Below are positions 48,712-48,963 of a stretch of 64,000 nucleotides of DNA, piece after piece. A program made the translations under genes and the position numbers. Below the pieces are notes generated by a model. The model did no database searches. It worked only from the letters and a program-made list of their open reading frames with translations, and had not been told where the DNA came from. Origin of the DNA: Naegleria gruberi (Eukaryota); assembly GCA_000004985.1 (NCBI GenBank), contig GG738857.1. One strand, written 5' to 3'. How positions within the stretch are numbered: position 1 is the first letter of the stretch; the number at the start of each line of letters is the position of its first letter.

Positions 48712-48963
48712 ATGACTACCCAAACTCTTTCTCAATTAGATCTCATTGTTTTAATTATTTTCGCAATCTTCATGCCACCAGTTACTGTTGCAGTTGTACG
48801 TATTAAATTATTATTCATATAGTTTAATGACATGTTTATTTGGTAAATATATGAAACTAAACTTTAGAAAAAATCAATTGGTCTTCACTTGTATATTTCG
48901 GCCATCCTAACCCTCTTTTAAGGAGTAATCTATGCATTCATTGTATTATTCGATATTCTTTAA
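48712..48963 (+). CDS. Pmp3/UPF0057-family plasma-membrane proteolipid, join(48712..48795,48868..48963), with an in-frame TAA at 48919..48921. Candidate pseudogene, sequencing error or readthrough.
   Basis: Exon 1 MTTQTLSQLDLIVLIIFAIFMPPVTVAV ends at GTACGT. A 72-nt intron ends tttag. Exon 2 reads KKSIGLHLYISAILTLF*GVIYAFIVLFDIL*, collinear with yeast Pmp3 (...PPVAVFLARGWGTDCIVDIILTILAWFPGMLYALYIVLQD). The stop sits at the conserved Pro/Gly turn between helix 2 halves. Confidence 0.45.

What the first reader, a model, noticed from the sequence alone, without database searches (positions are those of the whole stretch)
48712..48963. Pmp3/UPF0057 proteolipid gene interrupted by an in-frame TAA
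The two-exon model aligns residue-for-residue with yeast Pmp3, but codon 46 (48919..48921) is TAA at the conserved turn. The reading frame continues perfectly afterwards (GVIYAFIVLFDIL*). This is a single-codon lesion in an otherwise intact 55-codon gene. The candidates are a sequencing error, a very young pseudogene, or programmed stop-codon readthrough.
Basis: partly seen in the sequence, partly recalled or inferred. Interest (0 to 1): 0.5.

Follow-up and report, generated by a model that had tools for sequence, protein, structure and literature searches.

The report
Broken Pmp3-family gene copy in Naegleria
A small, unannotated two-exon Pmp3/UPF0057 membrane-proteolipid gene in Naegleria gruberi really is cut by an in-frame TAA, but three neighbouring codons and the family's invariant proline are also missing, so it is most likely an ordinary lineage-specific pseudogene.

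Summary
The window is Naegleria gruberi nuclear DNA with the standard code; TAA is its usual terminator. A two-exon model (48712-48795, 72-nt GT..AG intron, 48868-48963) matches Pfam Pmp3 (PF01679) at 31.8 bits against a cut-off of 22.9. TAA at 48919-48921 is codon 46.

Of 3,440 stop-free segments in six frames, the three best matches to a Pmp3 profile are exon 1, exon 2 before the stop, and the 13 codons after it. They are collinear on the profile.

The lesion is not a single codon in an intact 55-codon gene. The model has 59 sense codons. The TAA replaces four conserved positions (G-[Y/W]-[I/V/L]-P), leaving a net deficit of three codons. It falls in the alignment column where all 11 aligned relatives have Pro (94 of 96 motif-matched relatives). 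No single-base correction of TAA gives Pro or restores canonical spacing.

The UAA-G context favours termination. The gene is absent from the same BAG-cullin spacer in N. fowleri, N. lovaniensis and a related metagenome contig. No close relative or annotated product turned up in the searches run.

Best reading: a lineage-specific, unprocessed Pmp3 pseudogene or null allele. Sequencing error, a truncated functional peptide and readthrough are minor alternatives. Reads and RNA could not be checked. Interest is low.

The parts
48712..48795 (+). Exon 1 of the Pmp3-like gene (28 codons: MTTQTLSQLDLIVLIIFAIFMPPVTVAV; TM1 with the family's PP motif)
   Evidence: Sequence read; Pfam Pmp3 13.5 bits alone; top-ranked of 3,440 six-frame segments against the family HMM, nodes 11-32
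48796..48867 (+). Phase-0 spliceosomal intron, 72 nt, GTACGT...ACTAAACTTTAG
   Evidence: Joining the exons raises the Pfam score from 14.6 bits (unspliced) to 31.3. A 48-nt GTAAGT..CAG intron in the neighbouring annotated cullin shows that short introns are normal here
48868..48918 (+). Exon 2 before the stop (17 codons: KKSIGLHLYISAILTLF; loop plus the first half of TM2 with the LT motif)
   Evidence: Second-ranked six-frame segment, HMM nodes 33-49, 12.4 bits; gapless against Pfam positions up to 35
48919..48921 (+). In-frame TAA (codon 46), followed by G. It replaces four family positions, G-[Y/W]-[I/V/L]-P
   Evidence: T-to-G spacing is 3 here, against 6 in 94 of 96 natural relatives. The residue before G is P in 94 of 96. 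MAFFT places a 3-column gap and then X in the Pro column
48922..48960 (+). Post-stop relic of the Pmp3 C-terminus (GVIYAFIVLFDIL), in the same frame
   Evidence: Third-ranked six-frame segment, HMM nodes 54-64, 9.4 bits; +7.1 bits, empirical p about 0.001; +5.3 bits on the Pfam profile when the gap is filled with X
48961..48963 (+). Ancestral terminator TAA (followed by A)
   Evidence: the resulting length is typical for the family
48335..49669 (.). N. gruberi-specific long spacer (1,335 nt) between the BAG-domain gene (ends 48334) and the cullin-3-like gene (starts 49670); it holds the Pmp3-like gene
   Evidence: The same spacer is 340 nt in N. lovaniensis (L001) and 418 nt in L003. It is about 400-460 nt in N. 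fowleri-type loci L004 and L005, counted from the annotated gene ends. No Pmp3-like sequence is present in any of them

Best explanation
This is an unannotated, unprocessed (intron-containing) copy of a Pmp3/UPF0057 proteolipid gene. It lies in the spacer between the BAG-domain gene and the cullin-3-like gene NAEGRDRAFT_31990 of Naegleria gruberi and carries a real disabling lesion. In the middle of transmembrane helix 2, four conserved codons (Gly, Tyr/Trp, Ile/Val/Leu, Pro) are replaced by a single TAA. Shown: the homology, the exon structure, the position of the stop, the three-codon deficit and the absence from the same site in other Naegleria. Inferred: translation stops at UAA-46 and yields at most a 45-residue peptide with TM1 and only 12-13 residues of TM2, too short to span a membrane. 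On that inference the copy is a pseudogene or a null allele. It still looks gene-like because the rest of the sequence has not yet decayed.
For: The organism and code are settled. The cullin ORF is 98% identical to N. gruberi XP_002679430.1. Of 28 long ORFs, 21 end in TAA, and the cullin ends at the conserved YKYLA followed by TAA. Family homology of all three pieces is shown. The lesion is compound: three profile positions are deleted exactly at the stop, and the stop falls on the Pro column. Single-base neighbours of TAA encode Q, K, E, S, L or Y or are stops, so one base change cannot rebuild the PG motif or the spacing (genetic code). UAA followed by a purine is an efficient eukaryotic terminator (established knowledge). 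No product from this locus and no relative sharing several 5-residue words exists among 5.8 billion protein clusters, which include the N. gruberi proteome. The locus is absent from the syntenic BAG-cullin spacer of N. lovaniensis, N. fowleri, L005 and L003. The assembly looks clean locally: about 49 kb of the 64 kb lies in uninterrupted ORFs of at least 150 aa, the nearest N-run is 6.7 kb away, and a crude same-frame scan found no obvious second in-frame stop in a long gene.
Against: Raw reads, a second N. gruberi assembly, ESTs and RNA-seq could not be accessed, so the TAA itself is unverified and expression is unknown. Apart from the one site the ORF is clean: good ATG context, canonical splice sites, no frameshift, correct terminator, and Pfam score above the gathering cut-off. 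That would also fit a functional gene with a local peculiarity. The three-codon deficit is in frame. No intact parent or paralogue was found to show where the copy came from. The N. gruberi genome is heterozygous (Fritz-Laylin 2010, as cited in PMC9928731), so the other haplotype might be intact.
Confidence: 0.6

Rival explanations
1. Heterozygous null allele. The TAA and deletion are real but sit on only one haplotype of the heterozygous, possibly polyploid strain NEG-M. The other haplotype carries an intact Pmp3-like gene that the consensus assembly does not show.
For: Heterozygosity of N. gruberi is reported (Fritz-Laylin 2010, as cited in PMC9928731). Outside the lesion the gene is remarkably undecayed.
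Against: There is no direct evidence. No protein from such an allele is in the databases.
Confidence: 0.13
2. A functional, naturally short 45-residue Pmp3-derived micropeptide. The stop is real and tolerated or selected, and the downstream family-like sequence is now 3' UTR.
For: The truncated product alone still scores 31.3 bits against Pfam Pmp3, above the 22.9 cut-off. Start context, splice sites and TM1 are intact.
Against: None of the 120 listed natural relatives is shorter than 50 residues, and none of those examined lacks the PG...A half of TM2. Twelve to thirteen hydrophobic residues cannot span a bilayer. There is no conservation evidence because no orthologues were found.
Confidence: 0.1
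3. Sequencing or assembly error. The true sequence has a sense codon, or more sequence, at 48919-48921, and the gene is an intact but divergent Pmp3.
For: The window comes from a draft Sanger assembly with three N-runs (PMC9928731). The frame before and after the stop is the same.
Against: A one-base fix cannot give Pro or restore the three missing codons. The region is unique, not low-complexity and far from gaps. The other long genes in the window run as uninterrupted ORFs.
Confidence: 0.08
4. Programmed stop-codon readthrough. Ribosomes occasionally decode UAA-46 and produce a 59-residue two-TM protein alongside the 45-residue product.
For: The downstream frame is open and family-like up to a terminator at the family-typical length. 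A weak hairpin pairs UAAGGAGUA with UAUUCUUUA, -17.1 kcal/mol, z = -2.3.
Against: UAA is the least leaky stop, and G at position +4 favours termination (established knowledge). No known readthrough motif is present. The hairpin includes the stop itself rather than lying downstream, and 5 of 200 shuffles fold as well. There is no Rfam match. The readthrough product would still lack Pro and three TM2 residues. No paper reporting readthrough in Naegleria was seen among the titles and abstracts returned (papers not read).
Confidence: 0.04
5. Alternative splicing skips the stop. A 42-nt GT..AG segment (48881-48922) is removed in frame and joins KKSIG to VIYAFIVLFDIL.
For: GT at 48881-48882 and AG at 48921-48922 exist and the length is a multiple of three. 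The shortest intron verified in this window is 48 nt.
Against: The donor GTCTTC is poor compared with GTAAGT and GTACGT. The removed segment is the part of exon 2 that matches the family (12.4 bits). The product would lack most of TM2. The only 42-nt 'intron' seen nearby is probably an annotation artefact.
Confidence: 0.03
6. Chance resemblance in AT-rich intergenic DNA; there is no gene or gene relic.
For: The ORF is tiny and hydrophobic. Hydrophobic peptides arise easily from T-rich DNA.
Against: Three independent, collinear, same-strand pieces rank 1, 2 and 3 of 3,440 segments. ATG, splice sites and terminator are in the right places. Identity to real Pmp3 proteins is 31-45%.
Confidence: 0.02

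Closest known systems
Pmp3 / RCI2 / Esi3 / YqaE family (Pfam PF01679, UPF0057): yeast Pmp3, plant RCI2A/B, E. coli YqaE
   Same: About 55 residues; two hydrophobic helices; PP motif in TM1; basic loop with G; LT motif in TM2; C-terminal G-[IV]-I-[HY]-A-x-x-V. The Pfam score is above the gathering cut-off. One intron, as in the plant genes (all Triticeae members have two exons and one intron; PMC6288971).
   Different: The ORF is interrupted. The G-[Y/W]-[IVL]-P block before the conserved Gly is replaced by TAA. It has MPP rather than LPP. It is not annotated and has no close relative.
Closest database sequences: Acytostelium subglobosum SAMD00019534_016870 (P0047) and unnamed metagenomic or Logan Pmp3 proteins (P0048, P0051, P0052, P0057)
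   Same: 40-45% identity across the whole conceptual protein (P0047 44%, P0048 40%, P0051 45%, P0052 45%, P0057 43%). All are PF01679 members.
   Different: All are intact and all carry the four residues missing here. They come from unrelated hosts (a dictyostelid, bacteria, and a phage-like contig for P0057), so they say nothing about the origin of this copy.
Unprocessed (duplicated) pseudogenes of small multigene families
   Same: The intron is retained; there is a single disabling lesion; the locus is lineage-specific in otherwise conserved microsynteny.
   Different: No parent copy has been identified, and neutral evolution and lack of expression have not been shown.
Programmed stop-codon readthrough genes (e.g. 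UGA-CUAG or UAG-CARYYA contexts in viruses, fungi and animals)
   Same: An in-frame stop followed by an open, homologous extension.
   Different: The stop is UAA with G at +4; there is no known motif; there is no conservation evidence; the extension restores a defective rather than a complete domain.

Membership tests
Pmp3/UPF0057 (PF01679) | Sequence scores above Pfam's gathering threshold | tested here: met
   31.8 bits against 22.9 for the conceptual 59-mer; 31.3 for the 45-residue pre-stop product
Pmp3/UPF0057 (PF01679) | TM1 with the conserved (L)PP motif followed by a short basic loop with Gly | tested here: met
   IFMPPVTVAVKKSIG aligns with ILLPPLAVxLKxGxG; P22, P23 and V26 are invariant in the alignment
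Pmp3/UPF0057 (PF01679) | TM2 with LT, then six residues ending in Pro, then G-x-I-[HY]-A | tested here: not met
   LT and GVIYA are present, but the spacing is 3 instead of 6 (6 in 94 of 96 relatives), and Pro (94 of 96) is replaced by TAA
Pmp3/UPF0057 (PF01679) | Uninterrupted ORF of roughly 50-80 codons | tested here: not met
   TAA at codon 46 of 59
Pseudogene (unprocessed) | Clear homology to a protein family plus a disabling lesion | tested here: met
Pseudogene (unprocessed) | Not conserved at the orthologous site in related species, or evolving neutrally | tested here: inconclusive
   Absent from the BAG-cullin spacer of N. fowleri, N. lovaniensis, L003 and L005. Gain versus loss cannot be polarised, and no orthologue exists for a dN/dS test
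Pseudogene (unprocessed) | A functional parent or paralogue exists in the same genome | not testable with these tools
   The whole N. gruberi genome is not searchable here. No annotated protein shares several 5-residue words, and no Naegleria name appears among the best 120 of 392 Pmp3 hits
Pseudogene (unprocessed) | No stable transcript or protein | not testable with these tools
   No EST, RNA-seq or proteome data could be reached
Programmed stop-codon readthrough | Leaky stop context (UGA or UAG with C at +4, or a CARYYA/CUAG motif) | tested here: not met
   The context is UUU UAA GGA GUA
Programmed stop-codon readthrough | Stimulatory RNA structure a few nucleotides downstream of the stop | tested here: inconclusive
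   Only a weak AU-rich hairpin that includes the stop itself; z = -2.3; 5 of 200 shuffles are as stable; no Rfam family
Programmed stop-codon readthrough | Stop codon and downstream frame conserved across species | not testable with these tools
   No orthologues found
Variant genetic code (UAA as a sense codon) | In-frame UAA common in conserved genes; UAA not used as the terminator | tested here: not met
   21 of 28 long ORFs end in TAA, including the cullin at its conserved C-terminus; Gln is encoded by CAA (666) and CAG (91)

The most novel reading that the evidence does not exclude
The UAA at codon 46 is deliberately leaky. The locus would then make two products: a 45-residue one-and-a-half-helix peptide and, by readthrough, a 59-residue two-helix Pmp3-like protein with an unusually short, proline-less TM2. 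This would be a first case of programmed UAA readthrough in a heterolobosean.
Probability: 0.04. Interest if true: 0.5.

Novelty: new member of a known kind. Interest (0 to 1): 0.12.

Why it matters
It matters little beyond annotation. The finding adds an unannotated Pmp3-family locus, most likely a pseudogene, to the N. gruberi genome. It marks a lineage-specific insertion or loss in an otherwise conserved BAG-cullin-phosphatase microsynteny block. It would become interesting only if the stop were shown to be read through, or if the other haplotype proved intact. Neither has support here.

Tried and rejected
1. Variant genetic code: rejected. TAA is the main terminator and ends the cullin at its conserved C-terminus.

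2. Frameshift or homopolymer error in the T4 run before the TAA: rejected. With T3 the frame stops after two codons. With T5 it gives LRSNLCIHC..., which does not extend the Pfam match (30.7 bits). The family-like C-terminus is in the same frame as the upstream part.

3. A micro-intron removing the stop (48881-48922, 42 nt, or 48891-48922, 32 nt): rejected. The donor is poor, and the family-matching part of TM2 would be removed.

4. Direct homologue search with the conceptual protein: one word-sharing candidate, none at E <= 0.01.

6. JGI metagenome scan with back-translated peptides: 600 pattern matches, none confirmed.

7. Look-ups of window ORFs and of the N. gruberi cullin model in the contig collection: not on record, so no second N. 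gruberi assembly was available. The cullin cluster has a single member.

8. Third homologue search. The query was a profile of the real sequence plus 139 synthetic conservative or consensus hybrids, used purely as a word-seeding device. It returned 392 real PF01679 proteins but none named Naegleria among the 120 listed. Its E-values are not evidence. Only comparisons with the real sequence were used. The HMM built from those hits may be slightly biased towards this sequence; the independent Pfam numbers agree in direction.

9. Flanking repeats, TIRs or duplication within the window: none found. Intergenic DNA is too diverged to align between species.

10. Other genes in the rest of the spacer (48964-49669): no Pfam hit for any ORF.

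11. Literature: no paper combines Naegleria with Pmp3, and there is no Pmp3 or PF01679 entry in the Naegleria pangenome supplements.

12. Origin from the nearest relatives: uninformative. P0057 lies in a phage-like contig and P0048 in a compact prokaryote-like contig.

Full report
**Source and genetic code**

The window is nuclear DNA of Naegleria gruberi.
- The long ORF at 49826-52036 is a cullin-3-like protein (PDB cullin-3, E=3e-114). It is 98% identical to NCBI XP_002679430.1 / NAEGRDRAFT_31990.
- The window is gene-dense, about 34% G+C, and has three N-runs. This fits the Sanger draft assembly of this species (40.9 Mb; PMC9928731).
- The code is standard. Of 28 long ORFs, 21 end in TAA, 6 in TAG and 1 in TGA. 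The cullin terminates with TAA right after the conserved C-terminal YKYLA. Gln is encoded by CAA and CAG.
- A sense reading of TAA as part of the organism's code is therefore excluded.

**Check of the observation**

The coordinates are right.
- ATG at 48712.
- Exon 1 at 48712-48795 (28 codons).
- A 72-nt intron at 48796-48867 (GTACGT...TTTAG, phase 0).
- Exon 2 at 48868-48963.
- TAA at 48919-48921 as codon 46, and a terminal TAA at 48961-48963.

The conceptual product is MTTQTLSQLDLIVLIIFAIFMPPVTVAVKKSIGLHLYISAILTLF*GVIYAFIVLFDIL.

Pfam scores for different constructs:

| Construct | PF01679 score (bits) |
|---|---|
| Full conceptual product, X at the stop | 31.8 (E=1.4e-7; cut-off 22.9) |
| Spliced pre-stop part (45 aa) | 31.3 |
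| Exon 1 alone | 13.5 |
| Unspliced ORF | 14.6 |
| Gap filled with XXXX | 36.6 |
| +1 frameshift alternative | 30.7 |

The splice is needed for the match, because the score roughly doubles when the exons are joined. A 48-nt GTAAGT..CAG intron in the annotated neighbouring cullin shows that such short introns are normal in this genome.

**Is the match more than chance?**

I built an HMM from 120 natural PF01679 proteins returned. I scored every stop-free segment of at least 10 residues in all six frames of the window, 3,440 segments in all. The three best segments are exactly the three pieces of the model, on one strand and collinear on the profile:

| Rank | Segment | Score (bits) | HMM nodes |
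|---|---|---|---|
| 1 | Exon 1 | 18.6 | 11-32 |
| 2 | Exon 2 before the stop | 12.4 | 33-49 |
| 3 | 13 codons after the stop | 9.4 | 54-64 |
| 4 | Best unrelated segment | 7.0 | - |

Appending the real post-stop peptide raises the score by 7.1 bits. Only 23 of 20,000 random stop-free 13-mers from the window do as well.

This HMM was assembled from hits to a query centred on this sequence, so it may be mildly biased. The independent Pfam profile points the same way: +5.3 bits for the C-terminal piece once the gap is bridged. The TAA therefore interrupts what was once a continuous Pmp3 reading frame.

The lesion is not a single codon.
- On the Pfam profile, residues 12-45 align without gaps to positions 2-35. 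Residues 46-55 then have to cover positions 36-48, so three profile positions are deleted exactly at the stop.
- In the natural relatives, the distance from the Thr of the LT motif to the Gly of G-x-I-H/Y-A is six residues in 94 of 96 cases. Here it is three.
- The residue before that Gly is Pro in 94 of 96.
- A MAFFT alignment with 11 relatives from bacteria, a phage-like contig, a dictyostelid, fungi and a nematode puts a three-column gap and then the stop in the invariant Pro column.

In effect, four conserved codons (G-[Y/W]-[I/V/L]-P) are replaced by TAA. The single-base neighbours of TAA encode Q, K, E, S, L or Y, or are stops. No one-base sequencing error or reversion can recreate the PG motif or the family's spacing.

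**Context**

The gene lies in a 1,335-nt spacer between a BAG-domain gene (ends 48334; Pfam BAG) and the cullin (starts 49670). The block BAG - cullin - Exo_endo_phos is conserved in N. lovaniensis (L001), N. fowleri (L004) and an N. fowleri-like Logan contig (L005). The BAG-cullin pair is also conserved in a related metagenome contig (L003).

In those loci the spacer is shorter:
- 340 nt in L001 and 418 nt in L003.
- About 400-460 nt in L004 and L005, counted from the annotated gene ends.

tblastn finds no Pmp3-like sequence in any of these loci. Willaertia magna (L002) has a different upstream neighbourhood and also no Pmp3 nearby. The locus is therefore specific to the N. gruberi lineage at this site.

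Whether it was gained there or lost elsewhere cannot be decided. On cullin distances N. gruberi is the outlier: 75% identity to all the others, while they are 86-99% identical to each other. No flanking repeats or duplications were found. The remaining 700 nt of the spacer contains nothing recognisable.

**Relatives elsewhere**

- The conceptual protein shares several 5-residue words with essentially nothing among 5.8 billion protein clusters. That collection includes the N. gruberi, N. fowleri, N. lovaniensis, Willaertia and Acrasis proteomes. The locus is therefore unannotated and has no close annotated paralogue or orthologue.
- An exhaustive HMMER search could only be run with exon 1 and found nothing.
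- A JGI metagenome scan found nothing.
- A word-seeding profile made of the real sequence plus 139 synthetic variants retrieved 392 genuine PF01679 proteins. The best matches to the real sequence are 40-45% identical. None of the 120 listed hits is named Naegleria.
- No second N. gruberi assembly or transcript set is present in the collections. The base call itself could therefore not be re-examined.

**Mechanism and alternatives**

The best-supported reading (about 0.6) is an unprocessed Pmp3 pseudogene or null copy. Translation would end at UAA-46. The product would have TM1, the basic loop and only 12-13 residues of TM2.

A heterozygous null allele with an intact partner haplotype is a variant of this reading (about 0.13). 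N. gruberi is known to be heterozygous (Fritz-Laylin 2010, as cited in PMC9928731).

The other alternatives:
- **Functional 45-residue micropeptide (about 0.1).** None of the 120 listed relatives is shorter than 50 residues.
- **Sequencing error (about 0.08).** This is disfavoured by the compound nature of the lesion, by the otherwise uninterrupted long ORFs of the window and by the distance to the nearest gap.
- **Programmed readthrough (about 0.04).** UAA followed by G is a strong termination context (established knowledge). No known motif or Rfam element is present. The only structure is a weak AU-rich hairpin that includes the stop itself (z = -2.3). The extended product would still be a defective family member.
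- **Stop-skipping 42-nt splice, 48881-48922 (about 0.03).** It is formally in frame, but the donor is poor and the splice would delete the family-matching half of exon 2.
- **Chance resemblance (about 0.02).** This is effectively excluded.

**Comparison with the known, and verdict**

The locus is Pmp3/RCI2/YqaE-like by sequence. It fails two defining features of a functional member: an intact ORF and the LT-x6-PG spacing with Pro. I file it as a Pmp3-derived pseudogene candidate, not as a Pmp3 gene.

This is a new, unannotated instance of a very familiar kind of object. Interest is low (0.12). The decisive data would be reads across 48.90-48.93 kb, RNA-seq junctions, a whole-genome search for paralogues, and a readthrough reporter. 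None of these could be obtained with the tools available.

Noticed in passing
window 50765-50806: The NCBI/JGI model of the cullin (XP_002679430.1, NAEGRDRAFT_31990) omits 14 in-frame residues, SFSTRQGAATVGGG. These are conserved in the L003 orthologue. The 42-nt GT..AG 'intron' in that model looks like an annotation artefact.
   Followed up: partly
window 49670-49711: The same cullin model starts at an internal Met (MPLDE...). The upstream 14 codons (MLRIPKKILAQTNE) are conserved in N. lovaniensis (MTLKIPKSILAKTKE) and L003 (MSLKIPKKLLEKTLP), so the true start is probably 49670.
   Followed up: partly
window 49670-52036 versus L001-L005: The N. gruberi cullin is only about 75% identical to the N. 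fowleri, N. lovaniensis, L003 and Willaertia orthologues. Those are 86-99% identical to each other, so Willaertia is closer to N. fowleri than N. gruberi is for this gene. The N. gruberi copy is on a long branch despite conserved synteny.
   Followed up: partly
window 45882-47600 versus L001 6068-8807 and L004 1-2738: Synteny breaks just upstream of the BAG gene. N. fowleri and N. lovaniensis have Mem_trans (-) and the meiotic gene Mnd1 (+) there. The N. gruberi window has an alpha/beta-hydrolase (45882-47399, -) instead, and no Mnd1 or Mem_trans anywhere in the 64 kb.
   Followed up: partly
window 48964-49669: About 700 nt between the Pmp3-like gene and the cullin start has no ORF with a Pfam hit and no counterpart in the shorter spacers of the other species.
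   Followed up: partly
window 48574-48711: An in-frame upstream ATG at 48574 could add 46 residues to exon 1. This extension has no family similarity: the Pfam match begins only at residue 58 of that 82-residue ORF.
   Followed up: partly
L006 409-591, L007, L008: P0057, one of the natural Pmp3 proteins closest to this sequence, sits in tightly packed, overlapping gene arrays with a faint SU10 portal hit. It appears to be a phage-borne Pmp3/YqaE gene.
   Followed up: no
window 6900-7662, minus strand: Successive open stretches of 499, 98, 116 and 152 codons in one minus-strand frame are separated by single TAG codons. The last three lie within the span of the 1,750-codon ORF 2410-7662, which is in another frame; the 499-codon stretch matches the adjoining ORF 7560-9041. 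An N-run lies at 7892-8042. The gene structure here may be mis-joined or compositionally odd.
   Followed up: no
window 30267-30340, minus strand: A single tRNA-Thr(AGT) gene is the only tRNA in the window. No suppressor-like tRNA was found.
   Followed up: no
window 48919-48963: The internal stop region UAAGGAGUA can pair with UAUUCUUUA at the terminal stop (9-bp AU-rich stem, z = -2.3). It is probably fortuitous.
   Followed up: partly
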